The notes under the pieces: generated by a model
What the model was told of the DNA's origin: nothing
Seen by the model: only the letters and a program-made list of their open reading frames with translations
The model's database searches: none
Part shown: positions 376 through 63,995 of the stretch, in pieces
How positions within the stretch are numbered: position 1 is the stretch's first letter
How the letters are laid out: every line of letters begins with the position of its first letter
Position numbers and translations under genes: made by a program
IMG/VR virus record: IMGVR_UViG_3300028364_000013
DNA length: 64,000 nucleotides
Reading direction: 5' to 3' (one strand)
Source of the DNA: a virus
Taxonomy: Duplodnaviria; Caudoviricetes

Positions 376-407
376 AAAAAAAAGCCTGAACGTTCAGTCC
401 AGGCTTT
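376..407 (-). terminator. Intrinsic terminator (attenuator) ahead of the Gln tRNA cluster
   Basis: AAAGCCTG-N11-CAGGCTTT followed by T-run. Confidence 0.85.
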
Positions 408-436
408 AAATATTTTTGTTTTATTAACTAAAATGT

Positions 437-517
437 TCAGGCACCACCAGGACTGTCCTCTTTCGAAGATTGTTGCTGCTGTTGCTGCTGTACGTTTATG
501 TTAATTACTGTTTTCAT
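437..517 (-). CDS. Putative attenuation leader peptide, poly-Gln: MKTVININVQQQQQQQSSKEDSPGGA
   Basis: 26-aa ORF read by hand; 7 consecutive CAG/CAA codons; terminator then three tRNA-Gln follow. Confidence 0.85.
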   Translation of the reverse strand: MKTVININVQQQQQQQSSKEDSPGGA

Positions 518-577
518 TACTTTTAAATAGTATTCTTTTTTTGTTTACCAATAATCAGCGTGGTAATCCGCTATTTG

Positions 578-659
578 TGACCCAGGTCGGAGTCGAACCG
601 ACACGTCTTGCGACACACGCCCCTTAAACGTGCGTGTCTACCAATTCCACCACTGGGCC
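578..659 (-). tRNA. tRNA-Leu(AAG)
   Basis: CACGT-TTAAGGG-GCGTG, long variable arm, A73. Confidence 0.85.
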
Positions 660-767
660 AATTTAACCATAACTTAGTAAAGTGCCTCTACCGTTCTACT
701 GTCGAAGTTTGTTCGGGTGTTTACTCGCCTTGATAAGGACTGTCGATTGTTATAATTAATTTCTTAT

Positions 768-780
768 ACGCAAATGTAAT
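768..780 (-). promoter_or_regulatory. Bacteroidota-type sigma promoter -7 element (TACATTTG)
   Basis: Matches TAnnTTTG; similar elements near 4738, 29992, 34985, 36802, 44392, 60041. Confidence 0.65.
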
Positions 781-865
781 ACTTTTGTTTCAATTATTCA
801 ACTCTTTTTTTAATTATTTTTGTCGTAAGCAATAGGGTTCAGAAATTTTTAATATATTTATTGAT

Positions 866-2796: not shown

Positions 2797-2852
2797 CCAG
2801 CTTTACCTGTTTCCAACAACCGCTACGTGGAAGCGGGTTAACTTTGGTTGTC

Positions 2853-2943
2853 TACTCCTGGTCGGACTCGAACCGACAACGTTTACCTGCATGGGTATCA
2901 GATTTTAAGTCTGATGCGTTTCAACCAATTTCGCCACAGGAGC
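2853..2943 (-). tRNA. tRNA-Leu(TAA)
   Basis: TCAGA-CTTAAAA-TCTGA, long variable arm. Confidence 0.92.
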
Positions 2944-2952
2944 ATTTGTTTG

Positions 2953-3033
2953 TACAGATAGCGAGAGTCGAACTCGCACGCCTCTCGGCCATAGCTTCTA
3001 AGGCTATTGTGTCTACCATTCCACCACATCTGC
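2953..3033 (-). tRNA. tRNA-Leu(TAG)
   Basis: ATAGC-CTTAGAA-GCTAT, long variable arm. Confidence 0.92.
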
Positions 3034-3046
3034 ATGGCGCTGTAGA

Positions 3047-3595
3047 TTAATCTACAGCTTTATATTTTCTAAAAGTCATACTCACTCTTGGGCCACAATC
3101 TCTATCGTGCTTAGGAATCCTGTGCAAATTTGTATCTTGGAATCCTGGAGGCATATAGAATAAAGAACCATTTTCTAACTTTCTCTTATTCTCTTCTGGA
3201 ACTACTCCTTTTTCTCCTTTTAACTTCCACCAAATTTCTCTTTCAGCCCCAAATGATACAACCGCTATCCCATCATTATGGTCAATTGAATGAGAGTCGT
3301 CAGCGTGCCATCCTAATCCATTTCTTGAGTTCATATATAAATTCAAGAAGCAAATATCCAAACTTGTTCCCAACTTTTTATTAACCTTTTCCATTATTTC
3401 CCTAATCGCAGGCAACATTGGTGTTGATTTATAAGTTGGAGCTCCACTGTGGTCTAAGTAAGAGTATTCAATGTCAGAATCTGCCATAAAACACTCTCTT
3501 CTCATCTTCGTCTCATCAATCCAACTAACATCCCTTACCAAGGTGTCAATAAAATCTTCATTGACCAAATCATTTATGTATACTAACTTTTTCAT
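3047..3595 (-). CDS. AlkB-like 2OG-Fe(II) dioxygenase
   Basis: LN.Y...NGLGWHADD (HxD), distal HRIPK and RVSMTFR motifs. Confidence 0.85.
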   Translation of the reverse strand: MKKLVYINDLVNEDFIDTLVRDVSWIDETKMRRECFMADSDIEYSYLDHSGAPTYKSTPMLPAIREIMEKVNKKLGTSLDICFLNLYMNSRNGLGWHADDSHSIDHNDGIAVVSFGAEREIWWKLKGEKGVVPEENKRKLENGSLFYMPPGFQDTNLHRIPKHDRDCGPRVSMTFRKYKAVD

Positions 3596-3609
3596 TTCAT
3601 TTTTATTTG

Positions 3610-3682
3610 TAACTCCACCCAGATTCGAACTGAGACTTTAACGTTCGTAGCGTTAGGTGCTAATCCATTACACCATGGAGCT
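3610..3682 (-). tRNA. tRNA-Arg(ACG)
   Basis: TAACG-CTACGAA-CGTTA. Confidence 0.9.
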
Positions 3683-3985
3683 ATGAATTTCAAAGTGACA
3701 ATTAGCACAAACCAACATACACTTATCTAATTCTTCTTTTATTTTTTTATCAAACTTATGCGACTTCATTTTACTTAAAGCAAAACCTTTTTCTTTTGGG
3801 TCAAGGTGATGAAACTGTAAAGCTCCAACATATTTATCATATCCACATTTTTCACAACAACCACCTTTGTATTCAACGCATTTAATTTTAAACTTTCTAC
3901 CACGTTCTCTACTCTCTTCTTTATATCCAAGAGCCTCTAAAATTATTGGAAGTGCTGATTCTGTGTAAAATATTCTCGGTTTCAT
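3668..3985 (-). CDS. HNH endonuclease (likely start 3985; stop lies inside tRNA-Arg)
   Basis: CEKCGY..ALQFHHLDP..CMLVCANCHFEIH; paralog of 29137 and 57310. Confidence 0.8.
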   Translation of the reverse strand: MKPRIFYTESALPIILEALGYKEESRERGRKFKIKCVEYKGGCCEKCGYDKYVGALQFHHLDPKEKGFALSKMKSHKFDKKIKEELDKCMLVCANCHFEIHSSMV

Positions 3986-4000
3986 ATTTAAAATTTTTTG

Positions 4001-4081
4001 TACAGATGACGAGAGTCGAACTCGCACGCCTTTCGGCACTGGTTTCTAAAACCAGCGTGTCTACCATTCCACCACATCTGC
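4001..4081 (-). tRNA. tRNA-Leu(TAG)
   Basis: CTGGT-TTTAGAA-ACCAG, long variable arm. Confidence 0.92.
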
Positions 4082-4141
4082 ATATTTTTGGATAGTTAGT
4101 CGGAATATTTCCGATTATCCTATCACAATTTTACATTTTTG

Positions 4142-4215
4142 TAGGAGTAGAGGAATTCGAATCCCCGACATCTGACATGTAAAATCAGCGCTCTAACCAA
4201 CTGAGCTATACTCCT
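4142..4215 (-). tRNA. tRNA-Val(TAC)
   Basis: CTGAT-TTTACAT-GTCAG. Confidence 0.92.
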
Positions 4216-4305
4216 ATTTTTTCTAAATTTATAAATTTCATCTTAGGTCAAACCAAGAAGGGCTCGAAATTTAATTTTTAATATATTTTTTAATAAAAAC
4301 TATTA

Positions 4306-4350
4306 AAAAATATCTTGACATCATAATCAATATTATCAAAGAACGAACAT
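4306..4350 (+). pseudogene. 3'-end remnant of the endonuclease gene at 2125..2796
   Basis: aaaaaatatcttgacatcataatcaatattatcaaagaacg is nearly identical to ~2741-2781. Confidence 0.6.
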
Positions 4351-4394
4351 TAAATGCTAAAACCTAAATAATAATTATTTCAAAGAACTTATAG

Positions 4395-4468
4395 TGGAAT
4401 AGGGTGGATTCGAACCGCCAACGCTCACCGCTTCAAGATGACGCTCTACCAATTGGAGCTACTATTCC
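4395..4468 (-). tRNA. tRNA-Phe(GAA)
   Basis: TCATC-TTGAAGC-GGTGA. Confidence 0.88.
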
Positions 4469-4521
4469 ATTTATTTCAATAATTTTCCTTTCGAATACCA
4501 ATGGACGTTTCCATAGGGCAC

Positions 4522-4554
4522 AAAAAAAGCCCGAACAATTATGTTCGGGCTTTT
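4522..4554 (-). terminator. Intrinsic terminator (attenuator) ahead of the Phe/Val/Leu/Arg cluster
   Basis: AAAAGCCCGAACA-TAAT-TGTTCGGGCTTTT plus T-run. Confidence 0.88.
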
Positions 4555-4584
4555 AAAATATCTTGTGTTATATAATTTACATCA

Positions 4585-4689
4585 TCACACTAAAGACATA
4601 TCACGTCCGAACTTTTGTCTACTAAAGACAAACAGTAACTGCAAGAATTGCAGTGATAACTGACGTAATATGTTGTTAATGTTTTTCAT
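4585..4689 (-). CDS. Putative leader peptide, Leu/Phe-rich: MKNINNILRQLSLQFLQLLFVFSRQKFGRDMSLV
   Basis: 34-aa ORF with 7 Leu, 4 Phe, 2 Val, 3 Arg; terminator then the matching tRNAs follow. Confidence 0.8.
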   Translation of the reverse strand: MKNINNILRQLSLQFLQLLFVFSRQKFGRDMSLV

Positions 4690-4821
4690 GTTATTTCTAA
4701 ATATACTAAAATTTTGTTTTCTCGTTTTATTATACGCAAATATAATACTTTTGTTTCAATAAAACCTAATCTTTTTTAGATAAAATTAAAATTAATTTAT
4801 AATCACTTGATTGTTAGCGCT

Positions 4822-7218: not shown

Positions 7219-8337
7219 CTAATGTACTACTTTAGCGATTGCAGGATTGTTCCTAATCCCGAAATTCATTATATTTTTACCTGCATTAACATCTCTATCT
7301 TCCGAATGTCCACACTTATCACAATTATATGTCCTATCTGAAAGTTTAAGGTCTTTCTTGATATTCCCACAAACATTGCACAATTTACTACTTGGTTCAA
7401 ATCTTCCGATTACAACAAGGTTTTTACCTTGCCATTCAGATTTATATTCAAGCATTGTTCTTAATTGCCCCCAACCCATATCAGATATAGCCTTTGCTAA
7501 ACAATGGTTTTTAACCATATTAGAAACTGCTAAATCCTCAATACAAATTGTTTCATAAGTATCCACTAATTCAGTAGATATTTTATGCAAATAGTCAGTC
7601 CTTTGGTTACGGATTTTCTCTTGCAATAATGCTACTTTTAATTTTTGTTTTTCTCTATTACTACTTCCTTTTACTTTTCTTGCTAAACTTCTTTGTTCAA
7701 CTCTCAGCCTTATTTGTTGTGATTTGAAAAAGTTTTTATTTTCATACACAACTCCATCAGAAGTGATAGCTAAATCTTTAATCCCAAAATCAATTCCTAC
7801 ACTTGTACTTGTTGTAATTATTTTCTTTTTAGGTATTTCTTTATCATTATCAACTAAAATAGATACAAAATATTTACCTGTTACAGTCTTAGTTAATGTT
7901 ACTCTTTTTGGTATTCCTTTAAATTCTCTATGATAATCAATAGCAACTTCTTTTAATTTAGGAAGTTTAATAACATTGTCCTTAAATGATATTTCAAAAC
8001 CTTGCGGAAATGTAATTGATTGTTTAGAATATCTATTTTTATATTTAGGAAATTGCCCCCTGCCTTTAAAAAAGTTTTGATATGCAGTATCTAAATTAAT
8101 TAAACTATGTTGCAAAATTTGGCTTGGGCATTCCTTTATGTAATCAAATTCTTTTTTTAATTCGGGTAATTGTTTAATTAAATCATACTTAGATATTGAT
8201 TTTTTGTTTGAAGCATACGCAGTAGTCTTAGTTTCTAACCCTAAGTTAAAAACCAATCTATTAACTCCAAAGTACCGTTGTAATTGGTCTTTTTGAGTTT
8301 CCGTTGGGAAAATTCTGTATTTATATCCTTTTAACAT
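7219..8337 (-). CDS. tnpB: TnpB RNA-guided endonuclease
   Basis: N-terminal YKYRIFPT HTH, RuvC motifs GIDFGIK / IEDL / DRDVNA, zinc finger CNVC..CDKC. Confidence 0.95.
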   Translation of the reverse strand: MLKGYKYRIFPTETQKDQLQRYFGVNRLVFNLGLETKTTAYASNKKSISKYDLIKQLPELKKEFDYIKECPSQILQHSLINLDTAYQNFFKGRGQFPKYKNRYSKQSITFPQGFEISFKDNVIKLPKLKEVAIDYHREFKGIPKRVTLTKTVTGKYFVSILVDNDKEIPKKKIITTSTSVGIDFGIKDLAITSDGVVYENKNFFKSQQIRLRVEQRSLARKVKGSSNREKQKLKVALLQEKIRNQRTDYLHKISTELVDTYETICIEDLAVSNMVKNHCLAKAISDMGWGQLRTMLEYKSEWQGKNLVVIGRFEPSSKLCNVCGNIKKDLKLSDRTYNCDKCGHSEDRDVNAGKNIMNFGIRNNPAIAKVVH

Positions 8338-8483: not shown

Positions 8484-8888
8484 ATGCAATCAAATTACAT
8501 TTCTACAAATCATTCAAAACATTACTTAAAAGCTCATATTATTATAGTTTGCAAGTATCGTAAGCCATTATTAGTTGGTCAACTCAAACAAGATATGCAC
8601 AATATTCTACAAAATATTATCTCTAATTCAGATTTTAGTGTAGAAGTATATGAGTCAGATTTAGACCACTATCATTTTCTTATTCGTTACATACCCCGTC
8701 TTTCAATCTCTCAAATAGTTCGTAGGTTAAAACAAGAATCCACTAAACACATTTGGCTACTACACCCAGCATTACTTCGTAGAGAATACTGGTACAAAAA
8801 TACATTTTGGAGTGATGGTTATTTCGTTTGTTCAATAGGCAAAGCAAGTCCTGATACTATTCGTCAATATATTTTAAGTCAAGGTTAA
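8484..8888 (+). CDS. tnpA: TnpA Y1 (HUH) transposase
   Basis: DHYH HUH motif, FWSDGYF, terminal YILSQG. Confidence 0.93.
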   Translation: MQSNYISTNHSKHYLKAHIIIVCKYRKPLLVGQLKQDMHNILQNIISNSDFSVEVYESDLDHYHFLIRYIPRLSISQIVRRLKQESTKHIWLLHPALLRREYWYKNTFWSDGYFVCSIGKASPDTIRQYILSQG

Positions 8889-9246: not shown

Positions 9247-10275
9247 TTATTTAATCAAAAATTCTTGGAGAACCTCACTCCCAAACTCTCCTTTGGTTAA
9301 ATTAATTATTTCTGTAACTGAATATTTTTCTTTCTTATTTATTTTATTTCTCTCAACAAAATCTTTAACACCAAAACTGCAAGCTCCAGTTATAGCTCGA
9401 TAACAAGAAACTGCTTGCTCAAAACTTAACTTATCTGTTAGCTTTAAGTTTTTAAAATCATCTTTGTTTACATCAGAATTTAACTTATAAATCAAATCTT
9501 CTCTTGCTTCTGAAAGAGAGTCTCCATGAGCATATCTGCCATTCCCATCTGTAACCAAATAAAAAACCTTCTCTTTAAATAGCTCTTTAACTCTGAAAAC
9601 ACCGCCTCTCACAGAAATAATCTCTGTAAATATACCATCTGCCTTTATGTATTTATCGCCCCACATAACTGGTCCAATTAATTTCGTGTAATCACAAGTC
9701 AAACCTCCCAAGTCCAAACCTCCTCCAACGGTTGGGTTAAATCCCTCTGGAATCGAAGTCAAGTTGTTCAAGTACAAACCTTCTCCAACAGTTGGGTTAA
9801 ATCCCTCTGGAATCGAAGTCAAGTTGTTCAAGTACAAACCTTCTCCAACAGTTGGGTTAAATCCATCTGGAATCGAGGTCAAACTGTTCAAGTCCAAACC
9901 TCCTCCAACGGTTGGGTTAAATCCCTCTGGAATCGAAGTCAAGTTGTTCAAGTACAAACCTTCTCCAACAGTTGGGTTAAATCCATCTGGAATCGAAGTC
10001 AAACTGTTCAAGTCCAAATATCCTCCAACGGTTGGGTTAAATCCCTGTGGAATCGAGGTCAAACCGCTCAAGTCCAAACCTCCTCCAACGGTTGGGTTAA
10101 ATCCCTCTGGAATCGAAGTCAAGTTGTTCAAGTACAAACCTTCTCCAACAGTTGGGTTAAATCCATCTGGAATCGAAGTCAACCCTCTCAAGTGCAAGCT
10201 TCCATTTATTTTAACTTCACCAGTAAACTGCTCTTCAGTTAAATTGTATTCCTTGCAAAATTCTTTTTTATTCAT
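9247..10275 (-). CDS. Protein with tandem 20-aa LRR-like repeats (LxLxxLTSIPEGFNPTVGG)
   Basis: About 8 units of a 60-nt repeat; close paralog of 22234..23262. Confidence 0.85.
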   Translation of the reverse strand: MNKKEFCKEYNLTEEQFTGEVKINGSLHLRGLTSIPDGFNPTVGEGLYLNNLTSIPEGFNPTVGGGLDLSGLTSIPQGFNPTVGGYLDLNSLTSIPDGFNPTVGEGLYLNNLTSIPEGFNPTVGGGLDLNSLTSIPDGFNPTVGEGLYLNNLTSIPEGFNPTVGEGLYLNNLTSIPEGFNPTVGGGLDLGGLTCDYTKLIGPVMWGDKYIKADGIFTEIISVRGGVFRVKELFKEKVFYLVTDGNGRYAHGDSLSEAREDLIYKLNSDVNKDDFKNLKLTDKLSFEQAVSCYRAITGACSFGVKDFVERNKINKKEKYSVTEIINLTKGEFGSEVLQEFLIK

Positions 10276-10283: not shown

Positions 10284-11831
10284 TTATTTTGTTTCTAATT
10301 TTATAAATGGTTTAATCTTTTCACACTGTTTTAGTGCGACTCTAATTTCTTCAAATTTTCCAGGAATTACTGGATAGTAGAGTTCATTTATTTTCGTAAT
10401 GGCATAGTGAATCTCTAGGACTAGCGGCCAACCTTTCTCAAGGTCTTTCCAAGGTTCTGCATCACCAATTCTCTTATTAAGTTCTTTTACAAGCTTGTTT
10501 GTCTCTTGAAGGGCGTCTGAAATTAGATAGTTGTTCCAAAGTGTTTTTATATTGTCAATTCTCTGGTCAAGTCCAACACACCATTTTTCTTCAGACACAT
10601 AAGAGTGGTCTAATTCAATATTTGGGTCATCCACGAACTTGTCGAGAGTCTTACTAGCCAATACGGTGACTCTGGTGACTAAATTACCATAATCATCAGC
10701 AAGGTCATTGTTGTATTTAGCTACAAGCAACTCTTCATCCCAAGATGAGTTTCCATAAGTTCTTAAACCCGCAAGCGCATAGTAACGAACTGCATCAACT
10801 CCATATTTTTTAACTTGGTCAATAGGGTCAACAACATTTCCAACAGACTTACTCATCTTACGTCCATCTTTATCCAAAATAGTTCCATGAACAAGTAATT
10901 TATCTGTTTTTTTGATTCCTGCAGACATTAATAGTCCCTGAAATATTACAGACTGGAATTTAAGGTTATCTGGGCCACAAATCTGAATTACTTCAGACTC
11001 ATTCCACCTTTCTTCAAAGTCATGGTCGTCATGAAGGTCATTAGGGTAGTATCCTGCAGCAAATATGTAGTTTAACAAAGCATCAAACCATACATATATG
11101 ATTTGGTCTTCATCTCCTGGAACTGGGATTCCCCAACTAACAGTTTCTTTAACTCTGGATATAGAAATGTCCTGAAGATTCTCTATAATCTTATCGAATT
11201 CTCCAATCTTATTCTTTGGTTCAAAAAATTTGTCATTTACATGCAGCCACTGAAGAAACCTTTCTCTATATTTAGAAAGTTTGAAGAAATAGTTTTCTTC
11301 TTCAACTTCTTGAAGCTCTGTTGTTGGGTGGTCTGGACAAACTTTTCTTTTGTGTATATGCACCTTAGGATATTCAAGAGCAGGGTCAACTCCTCCAATA
11401 ATTCTATCCTCAAGTTCTCTATCGCTTTTGAATGACTCGCATCCAACACAATAGGTTCCAGTGTATTTCTTTTTGTAGATGTCGCCTCTATTGAAGGCTT
11501 CAACCCAGAACTGCTGAACATTCACATAATGCTCTGAGTCAGATGTTCTGTAAAATGAATCCCAGCTATCAATCTTAAGTTCTTTAATGAAATCTTCCCA
11601 ACTGTAAAGAAGGTCATCAACATATGCTTGAGGAGAAATACCCTTAGCTTCAGCTGCTTGCTGAATCTTTAAGCCATGTTCATCAAGACCAATATTGAAA
11701 AATACATTATCACCACGATATTTGAAATATCTCACCAAAGCATCAGCTATGATAAATTCAAAAGCGTGTCCTATGTGCGGATTTGAGTTCGCATATGGCA
11801 ATGTGGTCGTTATGTATTTATTTTTATTCAT
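10284..11831 (-). CDS. metG: Methionyl-tRNA synthetase
   Basis: HIGH and KMSKS motifs, YVWFDAL, anticodon-binding helical C-terminus. Confidence 0.95.
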   Translation of the reverse strand: MNKNKYITTTLPYANSNPHIGHAFEFIIADALVRYFKYRGDNVFFNIGLDEHGLKIQQAAEAKGISPQAYVDDLLYSWEDFIKELKIDSWDSFYRTSDSEHYVNVQQFWVEAFNRGDIYKKKYTGTYCVGCESFKSDRELEDRIIGGVDPALEYPKVHIHKRKVCPDHPTTELQEVEEENYFFKLSKYRERFLQWLHVNDKFFEPKNKIGEFDKIIENLQDISISRVKETVSWGIPVPGDEDQIIYVWFDALLNYIFAAGYYPNDLHDDHDFEERWNESEVIQICGPDNLKFQSVIFQGLLMSAGIKKTDKLLVHGTILDKDGRKMSKSVGNVVDPIDQVKKYGVDAVRYYALAGLRTYGNSSWDEELLVAKYNNDLADDYGNLVTRVTVLASKTLDKFVDDPNIELDHSYVSEEKWCVGLDQRIDNIKTLWNNYLISDALQETNKLVKELNKRIGDAEPWKDLEKGWPLVLEIHYAITKINELYYPVIPGKFEEIRVALKQCEKIKPFIKLETK

Positions 11832-19791: not shown

Positions 19792-21219
19792 TTAGTATTT
19801 CCTTTTTGAAGGGTCGTCATCAGCCATCCTAACCACTTGTGGTGTGAATGTACCAAGAATATCAATCAAGTTGTTTTGCGCTTCCATTACTTTCGTAATA
19901 TCTTTATAAGCATATGGAGCCTCATCGAGACCGCCACCAACAAGTGTTACCTTGTTATCTTTAAGAAGCTTAGTAACTGAGCTTTGAGTAAACGAGTTTC
20001 TCGCCACCTTTCTTGACATAGCTCTACCAGCACCGTGAGAAGCTGAAGATATTGAGTCAACAACACCTCTTCCTCTAACAATGAACCCTGGAGAAACCAT
20101 AGAACCTGGGATTATACCAAGGACACCTTTTCCAGCAGGAGTTGCTCCCTTACGGTGAACAATAACCTCTTTACCATCAATGATTTCCTTCCAAGCAAAG
20201 TTGTGGTGATTTTCAATCTTAGCCACTGGGTTTAACTTTAGCTCTTTGGTAATTCTTCTGTGAATCTCGTTGTGACAAGCTTGCGCATAATCACCAGCCA
20301 TATTCATAGCTATCCAGTATTCCACACCAGCTTCCGAATTCATATCAAGCCACGCAAGGTGTTGAGCTGCCTTTGGAAGAGGTGTTGTGTTCATAGCAAT
20401 TTCATGATACTTGTTGGCAAGTGTAGCACCGAACCCTCTTGAACCAGAGTGAGTTAATACACCAACATATTCTCCAACCTCAAGACCGAAGTCGTTAGTT
20501 GGGTCAGTTATCTTAACTATACCAAAGTCCACAAAGTGATTTCCACCTCCTGAAGTTCCAAGTTGTTTCCAAGCTTTGTCCTTAAGAGCTTTTATGTTTG
20601 GTATTTCATTGAACTCTTTCCTATCAAGGAATTCGTGTTCAGTTAATTTACCATCATTCTCAACTCCCATTCCGAAGAATGACTCAGACTTAAGAATGTT
20701 TTCAATCTTATCTCTATTTCCATCAATGTATGAACCACCTTTATCGTAGATGGTCATGTGCATTCTACAACCTATGTCAACACCAACTGCATATGGAATA
20801 ATAGCATTATCTGTAGCAAGGACACCTCCAATTGGAAGTCCATAACCTTGGTGAGCATCTGGCATAAGAGCTGCAGCAACAGAGATTGGCAATCTTGCAG
20901 CAAGTTTTATTTGCTCGTGAGCGCCTTCTTCTATGTTGTCTCCACCATATACAGTATATGGCACACCAACTTCTTTAAGTGGGATTTCAATCACTTCCTC
21001 TTCTACAGCTGGAATCAATAATTCAGCGATTGGCCCAAGAACAATGTCTTCAACATAATCTTCTGGAGTCAAAAGTACAGCCTTTAAAATATCACGTACA
21101 GTATCAAGGTCACTGTGCTTGTAAGCTTTTGTTACAATCTTCAATGTTACACCCATAACTTTACCTGGCTCCATTCCGAACGCCATAAGGTCTTTGCCTG
21201 TTATCTTTAACTTTACCAT
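19792..21219 (-). CDS. rtcB: RtcB RNA ligase (3'-phosphate/5'-OH, tRNA repair)
   Basis: MPDAHQGYGLPIGG, VGVDIGC, LGTSGGGNHF, HRKGAT, SHGAGR, LDEAPYAYK. Confidence 0.95.
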   Translation of the reverse strand: MVKLKITGKDLMAFGMEPGKVMGVTLKIVTKAYKHSDLDTVRDILKAVLLTPEDYVEDIVLGPIAELLIPAVEEEVIEIPLKEVGVPYTVYGGDNIEEGAHEQIKLAARLPISVAAALMPDAHQGYGLPIGGVLATDNAIIPYAVGVDIGCRMHMTIYDKGGSYIDGNRDKIENILKSESFFGMGVENDGKLTEHEFLDRKEFNEIPNIKALKDKAWKQLGTSGGGNHFVDFGIVKITDPTNDFGLEVGEYVGVLTHSGSRGFGATLANKYHEIAMNTTPLPKAAQHLAWLDMNSEAGVEYWIAMNMAGDYAQACHNEIHRRITKELKLNPVAKIENHHNFAWKEIIDGKEVIVHRKGATPAGKGVLGIIPGSMVSPGFIVRGRGVVDSISSASHGAGRAMSRKVARNSFTQSSVTKLLKDNKVTLVGGGLDEAPYAYKDITKVMEAQNNLIDILGTFTPQVVRMADDDPSKRKY

Positions 21220-25384: not shown

Positions 25385-25475
25385 TTCTTCTTTTTTTAGT
25401 AGTCCTAAAAAGTTGTCAGTTTTTTCCAGTCTAATTCATCATTATTACTTGTTTTTTGTTTTTAAATTTGCGCAT

Positions 25476-25512
25476 AAAAAAAAGCCCAAACTATTCGAGA
25501 TAGCTTGAGCTT
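25476..25512 (-). terminator. Intrinsic terminator (attenuator) ahead of the YkuK-like gene and tRNA-Cys pair
   Basis: AAGCTCAAGCTAT..ATAGTTTGGGCTT plus T-run. Confidence 0.8.
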
Positions 25513-25536
25513 AAAATTTCTTTTATTATTATAAAT

Positions 25537-25647
25537 CTACTTCATAACACTCAAACTAACGTTTTTTTTGCAAAACGGACATACCCCTTCCAGGCCGCAA
25601 TCAATCGCTTGCGAAGTTGGTCTCCAATATGTCATGTTAGTTTTCAT
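25537..25647 (-). CDS. Putative leader peptide, Cys-containing: MKTNMTYWRPTSQAIDCGLEGVCPFCKKNVSLSVMK
   Basis: 36-aa ORF with 3 Cys, upstream TATTTATA; terminator then two tRNA-Cys follow. Confidence 0.7.
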   Translation of the reverse strand: MKTNMTYWRPTSQAIDCGLEGVCPFCKKNVSLSVMK

Positions 25648-26225: not shown

Positions 26226-26323
26226 TGGACAATACGAGAATCGAACTCGTATCTCCAGTTTGCGCTATCCTGTGTGGTTGCACTTCATAGCCTTCACCGA
26301 TTTACCAATTAATCTAATTGCCC
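26226..26323 (-). ncRNA. tRNA-like RNA with expanded, non-canonical anticodon region
   Basis: Acceptor GGGCAAT/ATTGTCC, D-arm and T-arm intact; ~45-nt insert with GCTAT/ATAGC pairing. Confidence 0.6.
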
Positions 26324-26328
26324 TTTTG

Positions 26329-26398
26329 TTGGTGTAGAGGGACTCAAACCCCCGACCCCCTGAATTACAGGTGCTCTAATCAACTGAGCTATACACCG
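26329..26398 (-). ncRNA. tRNA-like RNA with collapsed anticodon loop and C1xA72
   Basis: CCTG-TAATT-CAGG (5-nt loop), otherwise a cloverleaf. Confidence 0.6.
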
Positions 26399-28069: not shown

Positions 28070-28750
28070 TTACCAAGATTTTCCTTCTTTATAATTTTTT
28101 CTTCTTCTCTTTCTTCTTCTACTATACCTACCATCCCCTTCTGATATAGCTTTCCAACTTTTAGTTAATGCATGATGATTTGGGCATAAAATCTGCAAAT
28201 TATCTACTTTATTATTATCTGGATTACAATCTACATGATGCAACTCCAGCGGTATTTTACCTGAATATTTATTTACCTCTTTCCATCCGCACTCCATGCA
28301 TTTTTCTCCATGTATAGATATAAGATAAGTCTTATAAATTTTGGTATGCTCAGTAGTATATTCTCCTTTTTCTATTTTATCAAAAATCTCTTTTCTTTGA
28401 AATTCTTGTTGACACTTATTATTACAATATTTCTTATTTCCATCTATCTGCTCTTTACAGTTTGTACAATTATTAAACTTTTTTCTTTTTCTATTGTTAT
28501 AACTCACCCCACATGATTTGCAACAAAACTTTTTTGGATTAGACTTATTAACTTCAAACCCACATTTACACTCTAAACAACTCCTATCCTCACTACTTGA
28601 ATTATGTTCTGAAAATTTAACTCCAGATTTATTCATTTTATTCCTAACAGAATCAACACTCCTATTTAATTCTTCAGCTATATGATGAAATCTAAACCCA
28701 TCTATAACAAGCTTTTTAGCTTTTTCAAACTCTTCTTTGCTCCATTTCAT
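28070..28750 (-). CDS. HNH homing endonuclease
   Basis: CMECG..LELHHVDCNPDNN...ILCPNHH. Confidence 0.85.
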   Translation of the reverse strand: MKWSKEEFEKAKKLVIDGFRFHHIAEELNRSVDSVRNKMNKSGVKFSEHNSSSEDRSCLECKCGFEVNKSNPKKFCCKSCGVSYNNRKRKKFNNCTNCKEQIDGNKKYCNNKCQQEFQRKEIFDKIEKGEYTTEHTKIYKTYLISIHGEKCMECGWKEVNKYSGKIPLELHHVDCNPDNNKVDNLQILCPNHHALTKSWKAISEGDGRYSRRRKRRRKNYKEGKSW

Positions 28751-29126: not shown

Positions 29127-29136
29127 TTAATTTATT

Positions 29137-29595
29137 TTATTTACTCTTTTCTATTTCTTCATGTATTTCAGCATGACAATTAGAACACACTAAAATACAT
29201 TTATCTAATTCTTTTTTTACTTTTTCCCAAGACCTCGTATAACCTTTGTGACCTATACCAAATTCTTTTTCATTTGGGTTTAAATGATGAAACTCTAAAG
29301 CTCTACTACATTTATTATACCCACACCTTTCACAACAACCACCTTTATACTCAATTGACAATTGCTTAACCTTTTTCCTTCTATTTTGAACTGCTTCAAC
29401 ATTTTTCTTTCTTTTATCTTCTTTTTGAAGGGGTGATAAAGTTCTTTTACTTACATATTCTAACACTGTAGTTTTACTCACTCCAAACTCTTTAGCTACA
29501 ATCCTTGATGATTTTCCAGAATTATACTCTTTTTTAATTAATTTAATTAGTTCTTCACTAATTTTTTTTCCTTTTTTACTTTTTAATTCGTCCAT
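29137..29595 (-). CDS. HNH endonuclease with N-terminal HTH
   Basis: CERCGY..ALEFHH..CILVCSNCHAEIH. Confidence 0.85.
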   Translation of the reverse strand: MDELKSKKGKKISEELIKLIKKEYNSGKSSRIVAKEFGVSKTTVLEYVSKRTLSPLQKEDKRKKNVEAVQNRRKKVKQLSIEYKGGCCERCGYNKCSRALEFHHLNPNEKEFGIGHKGYTRSWEKVKKELDKCILVCSNCHAEIHEEIEKSK

Positions 29596-29649
29596 AATAT
29601 TAACTTTGTTTGTTAAAAAATAGGACTAAATTTTTCAAAGCATCACTTG

Positions 29650-29770: not shown

Positions 29771-29799
29771 AAAAAAAGCCCGACCTATTGGCCGAGCTT
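29771..29799 (-). terminator. Intrinsic terminator (attenuator) ahead of the Asn/His/Thr/Lys cluster
   Basis: AAGCTCGGC-CAATAG-GTCGGGCTT plus T-run. Confidence 0.85.
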
Positions 29800-29825
29800 C
29801 TGTATATTTTAAATTGTACTTGTGA

Positions 29826-29936
29826 TTAAATTAGTTCATCACTTCCATTTTTGCTTATACATAGCTCGACCATACCATTTTGCTTTTTATTGCAAATCGT
29901 ATTATTAATCGTTGTATGTATATTTAATGAGTACAT
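29826..29936 (-). CDS. Putative leader peptide: MYSLNIHTTINNTICNKKQNGMVELCISKNGSDELI
   Basis: 36 aa; core NIHTTINNTICNKK matches the downstream Asn/His/Thr/Lys (and Ile) tRNAs. Confidence 0.8.
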   Translation of the reverse strand: MYSLNIHTTINNTICNKKQNGMVELCISKNGSDELI

Positions 29937-33989: not shown

Positions 33990-34945
33990 TTAAAAGCCTG
34001 AGTTTACAGCATTTATTAGCGTCCTTTAATGACCTTACCCACATCATCTTGCGGTTAATCAATGTATCCACGCACCCTTTCAGGTGGTATACGCCAGTCT
34101 CGATACCTATGGGGTATCATTCCTATCGTGCAATCTAACTCTGTATTTTCCACCTACACTATCTTGCCAGACATATGCGAGCTTTCGTTACAATCGACAC
34201 CCACCTTGCGAGGATGAATGACTCCCTGATTCTGCCGAAGCATCCAGGGTCTGAGAGACCTTTTAATATACACGCCCATGAGACTTTCACTTTTTTTCTG
34301 TTTATAGTAAAAACCAGCCATGCCAAGGCTAATATATACTGCATGAGATATACAGTACGAAGAGACGTGCCCACAGGAGTGGTTTCATAACTTTTTGGTT
34401 ACAAAATGCCACACGCCTCTCTGTTAGTCTATGCTGACCAACAATTAAACCCGAATTACTTTCTACGAATAGTTAAGTAACCAAATCCAAATGAGATGAA
34501 GCCCTTGCGTTTCTTACACGCTCGAACAACACAACTAAGCTTTTCCTTTTCATCAGCCGAAGCCAACTTTTTTTGCAAAATTTCTAATGCTCAACTACCA
34601 TTTTTAATCTCATGATAGTTTACCTTGTCCAGGTAAGTACTCACTTATTGCATAGGTGTCCAACAGAATAAATTCTGAAGGCGAGGGTGACACCCCCTTT
34701 TATAGCTTGTTACCAAACTTTATCTTCCCACAAGGGGCTTGCAATGATTTTCATCACCACGAGACTCTACACAGCCTCAAAATGATTGTTATTTGAATTG
34801 TAAAAGCTGGTTCATGTTACATAACCAATTTAAAAGCGAAGGACTCTGCTATATTTCATACAGTTGAATGTTTGTCCCATTCTCACTTTCCTCACTTACT
34901 CTTACTGTCGAATGGACCTAAACATTTAGACCAATAACAATTTTT
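33990..34945 (-). ncRNA. Large structured non-coding RNA candidate (~950 nt, possibly GOLLD-like)
   Basis: No credible ORF; own TAGCTTTG promoter at ~34985 and a terminator; many hairpins (TTACCT/AGGTAA, AACTATCAT/ATGGTAGTT, TACTGTAT/ATGCAGTA, GATACC/GGTATC, TTCG loops). Confidence 0.65.
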
Positions 34946-35690: not shown

Positions 35691-35741
35691 AACCTATCTG
35701 TTTAAAGATAAATAGTACAAAAAAGTACAAAATCGACTAAG

Positions 35742-35814
35742 GGAATCCATACGGGATTCGAACCCGTGCCTCCTGCCGAAAGGCAAGCGCTCTATCCGCT
35801 GAGCTAATGGACAC
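35742..35814 (-). ncRNA. tRNA-like RNA, Glu(TTC)-like with 6-nt anticodon loop
   Basis: CTTGC-CTTTCG-GCAGG; D- and T-arms canonical; imperfect acceptor. Confidence 0.55.
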
Positions 35815-35897: not shown

Positions 35898-35997
35898 TGG
35901 CGAAGGGAGGATTCGAAACCTCCGACCCCCAATGCTGTCCATTCTTTCACAAGAACAACTAACACACTGGTGCTCTGACCAACTGAGCTACCTCGCC
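35898..35997 (-). ncRNA. tRNA-like RNA with elongated anticodon arm capped by a GTGA tetraloop
   Basis: Acceptor GGCGAGG/CTTCGCC; CCAGTG..TTCTT-GTGA-AAGAA..CATTGG. Confidence 0.65.
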
Positions 35998-44152: not shown

Positions 44153-44186
44153 AAAAAAAGCTCGGTCCTTTTTGGAACCGAGCTTT
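44153..44186 (-). terminator. Intrinsic terminator (attenuator) ahead of the Pro/Asp/Ala/Tyr/Gly/Met cluster
   Basis: AAAGCTCGGT(T)CC..GGACCGAGCTTT plus T-run. Confidence 0.85.
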
Positions 44187-44212
44187 AAACTATTCGTTTA
44201 GATATTATATTA

Positions 44213-44332
44213 TCAAACTTTAAGTTTATGCAAAACGATTCCGTCCCTGCTGCAATCATCTGCCGCTGGCGCCCCCATATAGCCCATCGGGTTAATTGAA
44301 GTGTTCTCGTTATATGTATAAACTTTTTCCAT
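44213..44332 (-). CDS. Putative leader peptide: MEKVYTYNENTSINPMGYMGAPAADDCSRDGIVLHKLKV
   Basis: 39 aa; core PMGYMGAPAADD uses only amino acids served by the downstream tRNAs. Confidence 0.82.
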   Translation of the reverse strand: MEKVYTYNENTSINPMGYMGAPAADDCSRDGIVLHKLKV

Positions 44333-61912: not shown

Positions 61913-63995
61913 GCATAACTATGTTCCCTTGCTTATCTCCATACCTTTGTGTTAGAGTTTTTCTTGGACCTCCATTAGCATCTTCTTCTGAAAGAGCATC
62001 TGCAATCCTTTGCTTAAATGTGTGATAAGTGTCTTTATCTCTAAGAGCTATTGGTTTACCATATTCATCAATGAATTTTTTAACCTTCTTAGCATCCATT
62101 CTTGAGTGGGTTGACAAATATTCACCAATCTTTAATAGAAGATATTTATTATCACTAAGTATTTTCGTACACTCCTCTTCGCACTCTCTGATAAGTTTTC
62201 TTGCCGCTTGCTCGGTAGCTTTTACGTTTTCTGTATTGAACATTGTGTTAGTGCTTGAACTCTTGTGTCCGTAAAACATTGGAACCTCGTCAAGCATACC
62301 AAAAATCTTAGCCATATTTAAAGCAACTGAAGTTGCACTTTCAAAATCTCCTCCAGTACCAACTCCAAGATTTTCTTCTCCAAAAATCATTTTCTCAGCA
62401 ACAAACCCGCCAAGAGCTATGATTATATACTTTCTTAAAGTATCTCTCGTGTCAATAGCTGGAAGCTCTGCTGCACAGTACCCTTCAGACATATTAGCTG
62501 TTCTACTAAGTATTTCTGTAGGAAGAATTTGAGCTCCATATATTGCTGCAACAGCATGTCCAGCTTCGTGTATTGCTACGTGAGCTTGCATTTCGTCTCC
62601 AGTAGATTTTCTTAGACTTTCAATTTTTAATTTAACTGGGAATTGTGATGTAGACAAAATCTCTCTACTACTATTTAGCATCTCTATTTTATGTTTTCCT
62701 CTGGTAAATTTCCACGAAACTATTTTGACCGAACCTTTTGTTTCAATTATTTGCTCAATTACTTTTCCAACATGACTTTCTACAAGAGAATTTATAGTTG
62801 TAAAAACTGGCCTTGCTCCTTGCGTTGGCAAAACACCTTCTTTGTAAACAATTGTGTTTACTGATTCGTGAAATTCAATATCAATATCATATTCACTACT
62901 TATTTTTTCAACAAGCTTTTCTAACTCAAGAGATATAAGTTGCCTATAAACCTTAGAACTGAAGGCAGGATATATTATTTGACTATTTCCAAGCCTGGCA
63001 ATTTGTTCTGCTCTAAACCTCTTTTGTAAGGCAGCTTTTATTTTTGGCATCGTAATCTTTAGAGAATGCTTATAAAACCTATCAGCATCACTATCTGGGT
63101 CAAAGTTGTTTGACATTTGATATGCTTCATCAACATTTCCAATAACAAAAATACAAGACTTAGAATAATCGAACTCCATTGGCTTAAACGCTCTATGCAT
63201 TGTTTCATCAAGAAAAGTAAGAGACTCATTGTGGTCCATCGTCTTAAGGAACTCCTTCAACTCTCTCTCTGATAAAAATCTCGTTTCCCAAATTGACTGT
63301 ATGTACCAATAGAAAACTGAAGGAACAAATAGGTCTTCCTTTTTTTCTTCTTCTTTTTCTTTCTTGTTTTTTGAATCCGTGCCATCTTCTTTGAAGTACT
63401 TTTCGTGATAACTCTTGTTTGATGATATAATTCCCATCTTAGACTCAACTTTTCCGCTGTCTACACAGTCTTTTAACTTCAAGTAAAGATGATACACTCT
63501 ACTTCCATAATAAGAACTCTGAAGGATTGAAATCTTTCCAGAATCTAATAAATCCCACATAGCTCTAAGTCCTGATTTATCAAGTTCTTCACCATTTTCG
63601 TTTATAGTTCTTCCAAGTTGGAATTCGTCAAACACAATTCCTATCTGGTGGCCTTCTCTGTTTTTTAACTCTTCTGAAAATGAATGAGCTAATTTTGTGT
63701 TATCTTGTGAAGCATAATCTCCAACATCAAACTTATAAAGACTGTCTTCCAAGCCAATGTGAAAGAAAAGTCTTTTTACCAACCTTGTCTTTCCTACTCC
63801 AGTCATTCCCCAGAGATTAATAATTGTTGGTCTAATCTGCCCATTAGGAAAAAGATACCAAGGCCTCATTAAATCGACCACCTCATCAATGATGTCATCA
63901 AGCCCAACGAACTCCTTTTTCAATTCCACTTTGGCACTTTCTAATACCTCTTTTCTTCTAAGAAACCCCTTTTTATCTTCAGCTGAAATTTTCAT
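61884..63995 (-). CDS. AAA+ ATPase fused to an M41-type (FtsH-like) zinc peptidase, no transmembrane segment
   Basis: Walker A GMTGVGKT, Walker B IVFDE, GARP sensor, HEAGH, LGGFVAE, GTGGDFESAT. Confidence 0.8.
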   Translation of the reverse strand: MKISAEDKKGFLRRKEVLESAKVELKKEFVGLDDIIDEVVDLMRPWYLFPNGQIRPTIINLWGMTGVGKTRLVKRLFFHIGLEDSLYKFDVGDYASQDNTKLAHSFSEELKNREGHQIGIVFDEFQLGRTINENGEELDKSGLRAMWDLLDSGKISILQSSYYGSRVYHLYLKLKDCVDSGKVESKMGIISSNKSYHEKYFKEDGTDSKNKKEKEEEKKEDLFVPSVFYWYIQSIWETRFLSERELKEFLKTMDHNESLTFLDETMHRAFKPMEFDYSKSCIFVIGNVDEAYQMSNNFDPDSDADRFYKHSLKITMPKIKAALQKRFRAEQIARLGNSQIIYPAFSSKVYRQLISLELEKLVEKISSEYDIDIEFHESVNTIVYKEGVLPTQGARPVFTTINSLVESHVGKVIEQIIETKGSVKIVSWKFTRGKHKIEMLNSSREILSTSQFPVKLKIESLRKSTGDEMQAHVAIHEAGHAVAAIYGAQILPTEILSRTANMSEGYCAAELPAIDTRDTLRKYIIIALGGFVAEKMIFGEENLGVGTGGDFESATSVALNMAKIFGMLDEVPMFYGHKSSSTNTMFNTENVKATEQAARKLIRECEEECTKILSDNKYLLLKIGEYLSTHSRMDAKKVKKFIDEYGKPIALRDKDTYHTFKQRIADALSEEDANGGPRKTLTQRYGDKQGNIVMLESKKKDSE

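What the first reader, a model, noticed from the sequence alone, without database searches (positions are those of the whole stretch)
4522..4689. Leu/Phe/Val/Arg leader with codon-level match to its tRNA cluster
The leader uses TTA/TTG/CTG (Leu), TTC/TTT (Phe), GTC/GTG (Val) and CGT (Arg). Downstream are Phe(GAA), Val(TAC), Leu(TAG) x2, Leu(TAA) and Arg(ACG). CGT-reading Arg lies here, while the AGA-rich leader at 59.8 kb heads the AGA/AGG-reading Arg tRNAs. Antiterminator block GTTCGG pairs with CCGAAC of the terminator's 5' arm.
Basis: partly seen in the sequence, partly recalled or inferred. Interest (0 to 1): 0.82.

Follow-up and report, generated by a model that had tools for sequence, protein, structure and literature searches.

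The report
Leader-peptide switch gating phage tRNA genes
A 34-codon mini-gene written in the codons read by the six tRNA genes just downstream, followed by a switchable transcription stop, probably lets this huge lake-water phage make those tRNAs only when ribosomes read these codons slowly; I found no published account of this kind of control for tRNA genes.

Summary
On the minus strand the layout is: promoter, 34-codon ORF (4689-4585), strong intrinsic terminator (4554-4522), then tRNA-Phe, Val, Leu(UAG), Arg(ACG), Leu(UAG) and Leu(UAA).

- **Amino-acid match:** 16 of 33 residues are F, L, V or R.
- **Codon match:** 14 of those 16 use codons that these anticodons read, against 9.2 expected (P=0.002). 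This includes CGT and CTG, which are rare in the genome.
- **Antiterminator:** the GTTCGG block is the best partner of the terminator's 5' arm (3 of 500 shuffles do as well).
- **Family:** the unit is one of six parallel units in this window. A seventh lies in an unrelated phage contig. Each leader matches its own tRNA set best (best of 5040 permutations).
- **Geometry:** in all seven, the predicted antiterminator strand becomes ribosome-covered 1-4 codons after the cognate block ends.
- **Conservation:** four Phe-leader orthologues keep the frame, the F/L/V core, the Arg CGT/CGA codons, the GTTCGG block and the terminator.

I found no paper describing leader-peptide attenuation of tRNA genes. 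This scan has already noted the same design in at least 13 other genomes. I checked part of that myself in cultured Caulobacter phage phiCbK. There is no expression or bench evidence.

The parts
4729..4780 (-). Promoter block shared with other tRNA units and some protein genes (A-rich stretch, TTGAAAC, TATATTTG then CGTATAAT). It is Bacteroidota-like: TAnnTTTG at 4744-4737.
   Evidence: Repeat family found in the own genome. TAnnTTTGCGTA occurs 10 times on this strand, 5 of them heading tRNA units, and it is the only such promoter for the Phe cluster. The Bacteroidota assignment is from memory of the -33/-7 consensus.
4694..4703 (-). A-rich 5' UTR motif TATTTAGAAA just before the start codon. 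No Shine-Dalgarno sequence.
   Evidence: The same motif precedes the Ser, Pro, Asn and Phe leaders. Long ORFs of this genome also have A-rich, G-poor upstream regions.
4585..4689 (-). Leader ORF of 34 codons plus TGA. Peptide: MKNINNILRQLSLQFLQLLFVFSRQKFGRDMSLV.
   Evidence: The frame is kept in four distinct orthologues, and all indels are multiples of 3.
4624..4668 (-). Cognate-codon block, codons 8-22: 10 of 15 are Leu, Phe, Val or Arg(CGT) codons that the downstream tRNAs read; the other five are Gln x4 and Ser x1.
   Evidence: Replacements among orthologues stay within F/L/V.
4662..4673 (-). Segment 1 of the ORF hairpin. It pairs with segment 2 (4607-4596).
   Evidence: MFE structure. 89% of cells are paired across 5 orthologues (helix 1).
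4638..4654 (-). Small hairpin inside the ORF (CTGCAA...TTGCAG), possibly a pause or structural hairpin.
   Evidence: One compensatory C-G to U-A change among orthologues (helix 2).
4606..4613 (-). Antiterminator block AGTTCGGA, a near copy of the terminator 3' arm. It pairs with CCGAAC of the 5' arm.
   Evidence: Best duplex, -10.1 kcal/mol, 3 of 500 shuffles as good. Invariant in all 5 orthologues. It is free while a ribosome sits on codons up to 22 and covered afterwards.
4596..4607 (-). Segment 2 of the ORF hairpin (anti-antiterminator partner of segment 1). It overlaps the antiterminator block by 2 nt.
4522..4554 (-). Intrinsic terminator: a 13-pair stem (core GCCCGAAC/GTTCGGGC), a 4-nt loop and a T7 run.
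   Evidence: Kept in orthologues: 92% of cells paired and one compensatory pair (helix 5).
4469..4521 (-). Conserved junction box between terminator and tRNA-Phe: a small hairpin around GAAACGT, then CGAAAGG, then TTGAAATA. Function unknown.
   Evidence: Conserved in L113 and L129, with variants in L131 and in the Pro and Asn units. Only two exact copies in the genome.
2852..4468 (-). Regulated tRNA cluster: Phe(GAA) 4468-4394, Val(TAC) 4215-4141, Leu(TAG) 4081-4000, Arg(ACG) 3682-3609, Leu(TAG) 3033-2952, Leu(TAA) 2944-2852. An HNH-like ORF and an AlkB-like 2OG oxygenase gene are interspersed.
381..517 (-). Paralogous unit: Gln leader (7 consecutive Gln codons) plus terminator, directly before four tRNA-Gln genes.
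25474..25647 (-). Paralogous unit: Cys leader (3 Cys) plus terminator, ahead of a 223-aa gene and two tRNA-Cys genes.
29774..29936 (-). Paralogous unit: Asn/Ile/His/Thr/Lys leader plus terminator, before the Asn-His-Thr-Lys-Ile-Met tRNA array.
44157..44332 (-). Paralogous unit: Pro/Met/Gly/Tyr/Ala/Asp leader plus terminator, before the Pro-Asp-Ala-Tyr-Gly-Met tRNAs.
59732..59877 (-). Paralogous unit: Ser/Arg(AGA) leader plus terminator, before the Ser-Cys-Arg(TCT)-Arg(CCT) tRNAs.

Best explanation
The segment is a ribosome-mediated (leader-peptide) transcription attenuator that controls a phage tRNA gene cluster.

**How it would work**
1. Transcription starts at the conserved promoter about 40 nt upstream of the ORF.
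2. The 34-codon leader is translated while RNA polymerase moves on.
3. If Leu (TTA/TTG/CTG), Phe, Val and Arg (CGT) codons are decoded quickly, the ribosome runs past codon 22. It then covers, or lets the ORF hairpin recapture, the GTTCGG block. The 3' hairpin with its T7 run forms and transcription stops before tRNA-Phe.
4. If charged cognate tRNA is short, the ribosome stalls in codons 8-22. This could happen because the host pool is poor, depleted or cleaved. Stalling opens the ORF hairpin and leaves GTTCGG free to pair with CCGAAC of the terminator 5' arm.
5. The terminator then cannot form, and polymerase reads into the Phe-Val-Leu-Arg-Leu-Leu tRNA genes.
6. The new tRNAs relieve the stall, which makes a negative-feedback loop.

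**Shown and inferred**
- Shown from sequence: the parts, their order, the codon match, the alternative pairings, their conservation, and the recurrence in six parallel units and in other phages.
- Inferred: translation of the leader, the direction and size of the response, and its physiological trigger.
For: **(1) Anatomy.** Promoter, ORF, terminator and tRNAs lie on one strand with no other family promoter in the cluster.

**(2) Amino-acid match.** 16 of 33 residues are F/L/V/R, P=0.0007 against the proteome.

**(3) Codon match.**
- 14 of 16 cognate residues are decodable by the cluster's anticodons, against 9.2 expected; P=0.002 strict, 0.024 liberal.
- CGT makes up 6% of Arg codons genome-wide but 2 of 3 here.
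- CTT makes up 38% of Leu codons and is read by a separately transcribed Leu(AAG). It is absent from the leader.
- CTG (3% of Leu codons) appears twice.

**(4) Structure.**
- Leader RNA MFE is -59.9 against -30.3 +/- 3.6 kcal/mol, z = -8.1.
- The GTTCGG/CCGAAC duplex beats 497 of 500 shuffles.
- Without a ribosome the 5' arm is mostly free (P=0.22). With a ribosome on codons 1-21 it is about half sequestered. From codon 23 on the value is about 0.

**(5) Family evidence.**
- Six units in this genome plus one in unrelated contig L095 each best match their own tRNA set. The true assignment is the single best of 5040 permutations.
- In all seven, the fall in antiterminator probability comes 1-4 codons after the cognate block.
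- In the Gln unit and in L095 the tRNA starts 0-11 nt after the T run, so those tRNAs can only be reached by read-through.
- Antiterminator complementarity is individually significant in Asn (0/500), Phe (3/500) and Cys (8/500).

**(6) Conservation.**
- Phe-leader orthologues L113, L127, L129 and L131 show only in-frame indels (9 and 3 nt).
- Core replacements stay within F/L/V.
- Both CGT sites are kept as CGT or CGA, and the GTTCGGACG block is invariant.
- 91% of structure cells are paired against 35-46% for slid controls, with two compensatory pairs.
- In the Asn unit an A-U to G-C double change preserves the antiterminator pairing.

**(7) Negative control.** 15 other small ORFs next to terminators and tRNAs in 99 fetched loci all gave P>0.1.
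Against: - **No expression data.** No RNA run holds the stretch (listed under Tried and rejected).
- **Weak alone.** Against random small ORFs of this AT-rich genome the F/L/V/R content is only at the 5% tail. L, F and V are also the residues of any hydrophobic micropeptide.
- **Short antiterminator.** It is only 6-7 bp, about -10 kcal/mol against about -19 for the terminator. It shows no covariation among Phe orthologues because it is invariant.
- **Uneven support across units.** The duplex test is not significant for the Ser, Pro and Gln units or for L095.
- **Stop-codon geometry.** A ribosome paused exactly at the stop codon does not cover GTTCGG, so the geometry is less tidy than in trpL.
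- **Unexplained junction box.** A conserved box of unknown function lies between terminator and tRNA-Phe. It could hold a second start or processing signal.
- **Non-cognate residues.** Four Gln residues and one AGA codon in the leader are not cognate to this cluster.
Confidence: 0.8

Rival explanations
1. The ORF senses decoding of its codons, but the output is not the terminator/antiterminator choice. A stalled or passing ribosome might instead control processing or stability of the tRNA precursor, for example RNase access at the conserved junction box. Or it might control Rho-type or other termination.
For: The antiterminator is short, and it is not significant in 4 of 7 units. A conserved box of unknown role sits between terminator and tRNA in the Phe, Pro and Asn units.
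Against: Every unit has a canonical strong hairpin plus T run placed exactly between ORF and tRNAs. In all seven units the 5' arm partner lies just 3' of the cognate block. The Gln, Ser and L095 units lack the junction box yet keep the design.
Confidence: 0.08
2. The small ORF encodes a hydrophobic micropeptide with its own function and its own terminator. The tRNAs are made from leaky read-through or another start, and the codon resemblance is a by-product of AT-rich sequence.
For: Random small ORFs here are rich in L and F (mean 32% F/L/V/R), and 4.8% of them reach the observed share. The peptide sequence is fairly conserved among orthologues.
Against: - Seven of seven leaders best match their own, different tRNA sets. 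These include a Gln7 run, a 12-residue run of P, M, G, Y, A and D, and an 18-residue run of T, R, H, S, L and P.
- The leader uses rare codons (CGT, CTG) that fit the cluster's anticodons.
- In the Asn orthologues, residues change order but not composition.
- Tails and N-termini diverge while the cognate cores persist.
Confidence: 0.05
3. The switch has the opposite polarity: efficient decoding promotes read-through and stalling promotes termination. The phage would then express tRNAs only when translation already works.
For: In four units (Ser, Pro, Asn, Cys) the antiterminator is predicted to form even without any ribosome. Translation is therefore needed for termination, not for read-through, and kinetic details are unknown.
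Against: In all units, a ribosome on the cognate block leaves the antiterminator strand free, and a ribosome beyond the block covers it. This gives read-through on stalling. Positive feedback on tRNA supply has no obvious use.
Confidence: 0.04

Closest known systems
Leader-peptide transcription attenuators of enterobacterial amino-acid operons (trpL, hisL, pheL, leuL; multivalent thrL and ilvL). Textbook knowledge; modelling in PMC1183508.
   Same: - A short translated leader carries a block of regulatory codons, followed by an intrinsic terminator.
- An upstream near-copy of the terminator 3' arm can sequester the 5' arm.
- A 1:2 hairpin enforces termination when the leader is not being translated.
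- Several amino acids are sensed in one leader, as in thrL and ilvL.
   Different: - The regulated genes are tRNA genes, not biosynthetic enzymes. What is corrected is decoding capacity, not amino-acid supply.
- The element is in a phage.
- Leaders are matched at the isoacceptor (codon) level.
- Six differently 'written' copies of one cassette occur in one genome.
- There is no Shine-Dalgarno sequence.
- No Rfam leader family matches.
pheM leader of the E. coli pheST operon (attenuation control of an aminoacyl-tRNA synthetase). From memory.
   Same: A Phe-codon leader plus attenuator controls a component of the translation apparatus rather than a biosynthetic enzyme.
   Different: It controls the synthetase, not the tRNA. 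It senses a single amino acid. It is cellular, not viral.
T-box riboswitches (RF00230)
   Same: Both give transcription attenuation that responds to the state of a specific tRNA and controls translation-related genes.
   Different: A T-box binds uncharged tRNA directly through a specifier codon and needs no ribosome or ORF. No T-box match was found here. Here the ribosome is the sensor.
Codon-matched leader units before phage tRNA clusters noted earlier by this scan in other genomes, including Caulobacter phage phiCbK (unpublished AI notes; partly checked here).
   Same: Same layout and logic. In phiCbK, annotated terminators sit just before the tRNA sub-clusters. The small ORFs ahead of two of them are rich in the amino acids of the tRNAs that follow.
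   Different: The sequences are unrelated, the GC content differs (66% against 34%) and the host phylum differs. The units here form one paralogous cassette family with a shared promoter.

Membership tests
Ribosome-mediated (leader-peptide) transcription attenuator | Short translatable ORF between the promoter and the regulated genes | tested here: met
   ATG ORF of 34 codons at 4689-4585, 42 nt after the promoter -7 box. The start is unpaired in the MFE structure. The upstream context is A-rich like that of the genome's long ORFs. The frame is kept in 4 orthologues.
Ribosome-mediated (leader-peptide) transcription attenuator | Block of regulatory codons cognate to what the operon supplies | tested here: met
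   10 of 15 codons in positions 8-22. 14 of 16 cognate residues are decodable by the cluster's anticodons, P=0.002. Each of 7 leaders best matches its own cluster.
Ribosome-mediated (leader-peptide) transcription attenuator | Intrinsic terminator between the leader ORF and the regulated genes | tested here: met
   A 13-pair GC-cored stem plus T7 at 4554-4522, ending 53 nt before tRNA-Phe. Conserved in orthologues.
Ribosome-mediated (leader-peptide) transcription attenuator | Mutually exclusive antiterminator that uses the terminator 5' arm | tested here: met
   AGTTCGGA (4613-4606) against CCGAAC: -10.1 kcal/mol, 3 of 500 shuffles as good. Invariant in orthologues.
Ribosome-mediated (leader-peptide) transcription attenuator | Evolutionary (covariation) support for the antiterminator pairing | tested here: inconclusive
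   No variation in the Phe-unit block. The one change in the 5' arm (A to G in L127) is compatible with both pairings. One compensatory change supports the equivalent pairing in the paralogous Asn unit.
Ribosome-mediated (leader-peptide) transcription attenuator | Geometry: a ribosome stalled on regulatory codons favours the antiterminator, and a ribosome that has passed them favours the terminator | tested here: met
   Footprint-masking folds: P(5' arm sequestered) is about 0.5 for A-site codons 1-21 and about 0 from codon 23. The same step occurs 1-4 codons after the cognate block in all 7 units. This is in silico only.
Ribosome-mediated (leader-peptide) transcription attenuator | Read-through rises in vivo when the cognate aminoacyl-tRNA is limiting | not testable with these tools
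   No RNA data for this uncultured phage. It needs reporters or infected-cell RNA.
Classical amino-acid operon leaders (Rfam Trp, His, Leu, Thr and Phe leader families) | Match to the curated covariance model, and regulated genes are biosynthetic enzymes | tested here: not met
   An Rfam scan of the whole window at gathering thresholds returned only tRNAs and GOLLD. The downstream genes are tRNAs.
T-box riboswitch | T-box covariance model with specifier loop and T-box sequence | tested here: not met
   No RF00230 match in the window.

The most novel reading that the evidence does not exclude
Phages from unrelated lineages carry a modular, rewritable sensor cassette: promoter, 'test' ORF, terminator. 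Examples are this Bacteroidota-type huge lake phage, its relatives, contig L095 and Caulobacter phage phiCbK. The codon block of each cassette is tuned, down to isoacceptors, to the tRNA genes behind it. This gives codon-resolved homeostatic control of viral tRNA supply. In this genome the units sit in an island with RtcB, an AlkB-like oxygenase and MetRS. They may therefore act as alarms that switch on replacement tRNAs when the host pool is depleted or is cut by anticodon nucleases.
Probability: 0.5. Interest if true: 0.9.

Novelty: new variant of a known kind. Interest (0 to 1): 0.85.

Why it matters
**Open question.** Why phages carry tRNA genes, and how they use them, is debated. The proposed reasons are codon-usage compensation, host shut-off and escape from tRNA-cleaving defences. 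A sensor that reads decoding speed codon by codon and answers with exactly the matching tRNAs would show that tRNA supply is actively regulated during infection. It would also name which codons the phage 'worries' about.

**Extension of a known mechanism.** This would carry one of the oldest known regulatory mechanisms, leader-peptide attenuation, to structural RNA genes and to viruses.

**Practical uses.**
- The leaders give a sequence-only read-out of which tRNAs belong to one transcription unit.
- The design offers a compact, programmable part (sense a codon, release a transcript) for synthetic biology.

**Testability.** A similar layout is seen in cultivable phiCbK, so the idea can be tested directly at the bench.

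Tried and rejected
- **Close relatives in GenBank phages:** only a 60-nt hit in Vibrio phages, inside the neighbouring gene.
- **IMG/VR scan with the promoter pattern:** 3 stray hits with no tRNAs.
- **IMG/VR scan with the back-translated leader N-terminus:** nothing. The same pattern in metagenomes gave three new orthologues and three chance hits in longer ORFs.
- **Relatives of the upstream 160-aa gene in IMG/VR:** all 45% identity or less, and not syntenic.
- **Phages G002 and G005:** tRNA arrays without leaders. The design is therefore not universal.
- **P0011:** no DNA could be fetched. L120, L122, L123 and L125 end before any leader.
- **Sequencing runs:** no RNA holder listed.
- **Laying contigs of four DNA runs:** only identical fragments. 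No variants, and no information on transcripts.
- **E. coli pheV:** from memory I thought it has a Phe-rich leader. The K-12 sequence upstream of pheV shows none, so I dropped the lead.
- **Junction box as a general (ECF-type) promoter:** only two exact copies exist in the genome, both at attenuator-tRNA junctions, so it is not a general promoter. Its role stays open.
ARAGORN finds none, even at relaxed settings. The two Trp codons of that leader remain unmatched.
- **Literature:** no paper on attenuation of tRNA genes by leader peptides. The library lacks most subscription journals and old scans.

Full report
**What is there.**
The window is the reverse strand of a 195-kb IMG/VR virus record from lake water. 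The record has 34% GC and CheckV estimates it at 78% complete. ARAGORN finds 37 tRNA genes in the window, all on the minus strand. Rfam adds a few more and a GOLLD RNA.

On the minus strand the finding reads as follows:
- a promoter-like block at 4780-4729;
- an A-rich untranslated stretch;
- an ATG ORF of 34 codons at 4689-4585;
- 30 AT-rich bases;
- a hairpin with core GCCCGAAC/GTTCGGGC and a run of seven T at 4554-4522;
- a 53-nt spacer;
- tRNA-Phe(GAA), followed by Val(TAC), Leu(TAG), Arg(ACG), Leu(TAG) and Leu(TAA).

The only omission is one AGA codon in the ORF.

**Is the match more than chance?**
Sixteen of 33 residues are F, L, V or R. Against the phage proteome this gives P=0.0007. 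Random small ORFs in this AT-rich DNA are also rich in L and F, and 4.8% of them do as well. The amino-acid match of this one leader is therefore suggestive, not decisive.

The codon level is stronger:
- Of the 16 cognate residues, 14 use codons that the cluster's anticodons read, against 9.2 expected from genome codon usage. P=0.002 under strict wobble and 0.024 if U34 reads whole family boxes.
- Genome-wide, Arg is 72% AGA and 6% CGT, yet two of the three Arg codons here are CGT, read by Arg(ACG).
- The commonest Leu codon, CTT (38%), is read by a Leu(AAG) tRNA that has its own promoter elsewhere. It is absent from the leader.
- CTG (3%) occurs twice.
- The leader at 59877-59785 has four AGA and no CGN, and it heads Arg(TCT) and Arg(CCT).

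**A family of units.**
A search of the phage's own genome with the region showed that the promoter block recurs ahead of other tRNA clusters. Reading those places showed the same layout six times in the window:

| Leader (window coordinates) | Cognate content | tRNAs that follow |
|---|---|---|
| 517-437 | seven consecutive Gln codons | four tRNA-Gln |
| 4689-4585 | this finding | Phe, Val, Leu, Arg |
| 25647-25537 | three Cys | two tRNA-Cys |
| 29936-29826 | a 10-residue run of N, I, H and T | Asn, His, Thr, Lys, Ile, Met |
| 44332-44213 | a 12-residue run of P, M, G, Y, A and D | Pro, Asp, Ala, Tyr, Gly, Met |
| 59877-59785 | a block rich in Ser and Arg (10 of 29 residues S, C or R) | Ser, Cys, Arg |

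Relaxed tRNA detection added an Ala, a His and a further Ser tRNA. These improve the matches.

An automated screen of 99 fetched phage loci found one more case, in contig L095. That contig is related to this phage only through a 55%-identical RtcB. Its leader has 18 consecutive residues drawn from T, R, H, S, L and P, and it abuts tRNAs for exactly those six amino acids (P=3e-6). All 15 other candidate ORFs in the screen scored P>0.1.

In a 7x7 matrix every leader scores best against its own cluster. The true assignment is the single best of 5040 permutations.

**Structure.**
The leader RNA folds far better than shuffles: -59.9 against -30.3 +/- 3.6 kcal/mol, z = -8.1. The fold has three main parts:
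- A long hairpin encloses most of the ORF (segment 1 at 4673-4662 with segment 2 at 4607-4596).
- Two small hairpins lie inside it.
- The terminator follows.

The block AGTTCGGA (4613-4606) is a near copy of the terminator 3' arm. It is the best partner of the 5' arm, and only 3 of 500 dinucleotide shuffles do as well. The same test gives 0/500 for the Asn unit and 8/500 for the Cys unit. It is not significant for Ser, Pro, Gln and L095.

I then modelled a ribosome footprint at each codon and folded only the RNA 3' of it, up to the terminator loop. In all seven units the 5' arm is sequestered while the A site is anywhere up to the last cognate codon. It becomes free within 1-4 codons after the cognate block ends. 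In this unit that is right after LLFVF.

With no ribosome at all, this unit and L095 default to the terminator, as trp does. The other five default to the antiterminator.

**Dependence on read-through.**
The only family promoter for the Phe cluster lies upstream of the leader. In the Gln unit and in L095 the first tRNA begins 0-11 nt after the T run, which leaves no room for another start.

**Conservation.**
Through homologues of the upstream 160-aa gene and one metagenome pattern scan I obtained four distinct orthologues of this leader: L113, L127, L129 and L131. I also obtained orthologues of the Asn, Pro, Cys and Gln leaders.

In the five-way alignment of the Phe leader, at 84% mean identity:
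- both indels are in frame (9 and 3 nt);
- every replacement in the core stays within F, L and V;
- both CGT positions are CGT or CGA, and inosine-34 reads both;
- GTTCGGACG is invariant;
- the terminator is kept.

The proposed structure has 91% of cells paired, against 35-46% when partners are slid. It has two compensatory pairs, one in the ORF hairpin and one at the terminator base. The antiterminator itself shows no covariation, because it does not vary.

In the Asn orthologues the core residues change order but not composition (T to I, I to N, N to I, and Q to H, where two His tRNAs follow). An A-U to G-C double change keeps the antiterminator pairing.

**Mechanism.**
The most likely reading is classical ribosome-mediated attenuation. 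Slow decoding of the block stalls the ribosome and frees the GTTCGG strand. This blocks the terminator and lets polymerase read into the tRNA genes. Fast decoding ends in termination. The loop is self-limiting.

Weak points:
- The antiterminator is short.
- A ribosome parked exactly on the stop codon would not cover it.
- A conserved box of unknown role lies between terminator and tRNA-Phe.
- There are no expression data.

**Known or new?**
The mechanism class is textbook. Its use on tRNA genes, and in a phage, is not something I could find in eight full-text searches or in the phiCbK genome paper (PMC3556154). No Rfam leader or T-box model matches.

This scan's own earlier notes report the same design in at least 13 other genomes, and for the other units of this window. 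I checked one of those leads. In cultured Caulobacter phage phiCbK, annotated terminators sit just before the tRNA sub-clusters. The small ORFs ahead of two of them are rich in the amino acids of the tRNAs that follow: gp083 has 31 of 44 residues in P, K, L, A and S, and a 32-codon ORF precedes the Phe, Val, Ile, Gln and Gly tRNAs.

**Verdict.**
This is a new variant of a known kind of switch. Interest is high. Confidence in the attenuator reading is about 0.8, pending any experiment.

Noticed in passing
window 33995-34421 (-): A GOLLD RNA (RF02032, 169 bits, full length) lies among the tRNA clusters.
   Followed up: no
window 4469-4521 (-); also 44156-44076 (-) and 29773-29722 (-); L113 5001-5068, L129, L131: A conserved box lies between attenuator terminator and first tRNA: a small hairpin around GAAACGT, then CGAAAGG, then TTGAAATA. 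The genome has only two exact copies, both at such junctions. The stem covaries between the own Pro unit and L121. Function unknown; it might be a processing site or a second start.
   Followed up: partly
window 577-794 (-): tRNA-Leu(AAG) has the family promoter but no leader or terminator. The Gln leader follows directly after it, so the Gln leader mRNA would be cut out of a tRNA-containing precursor.
   Followed up: partly
window 10284-11831 (-), 19792-21219 (-), 3047-3595 (-), 61884-63995 (-): A translation-care island: methionyl-tRNA synthetase, RtcB RNA ligase with an extra N-terminal piece, an AlkB-like 2OG-Fe(II) oxygenase inside the Phe tRNA cluster, and an FtsH-like AAA protease.
   Followed up: partly
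genome G000 73284-73356 (outside the window, about 2.8 kb beyond its end): A tRNA with anticodon CTA (amber suppressor type), next to a tRNA-Lys.
   Followed up: no
window 7219-8337 (-) and 8484-8888 (+): A TnpB-like (372 aa) and a TnpA-like (134 aa) ORF pair, suggesting an IS200/IS605-type insertion. Judged by eye from the translations; not scanned against Pfam.
   Followed up: no
window 59625-59713 (-), 58021-58103 (-), 35741-35813 (-), 35898-35997 (-), 26226-26398 (-): Odd or degenerate tRNA-like genes:
- an extra Ser(TGA)-like gene right after the Ser terminator;
- an 83-nt CCA-ended tRNA-like RNA;
- one with an irregular anticodon loop;
- several that look intron-containing or enlarged.

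These are found only by Rfam or by relaxed ARAGORN.
   Followed up: partly
window 3668-4039 (-), about 29130-29640 (-), 28070-28750 (-): HNH-type endonuclease-like ORFs are interspersed between tRNA genes of several clusters.
   Followed up: no
window 59920-60030 (-): In the Ser unit the family promoter is followed first by a 39-codon Lys-rich ORF and only then by the Ser/Arg leader, giving two small ORFs in tandem.
   Followed up: no
window 10003-10186: 24 single-base differences between the window and the genome record laid in the Python box, all inside one 184-nt stretch of the 342-aa ORF.
   Followed up: no
protein P0001: The identical 160-aa neighbour protein is also on record on a 364-kb contig. 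The complete phage may therefore be much larger than the 195-kb record.
   Followed up: no
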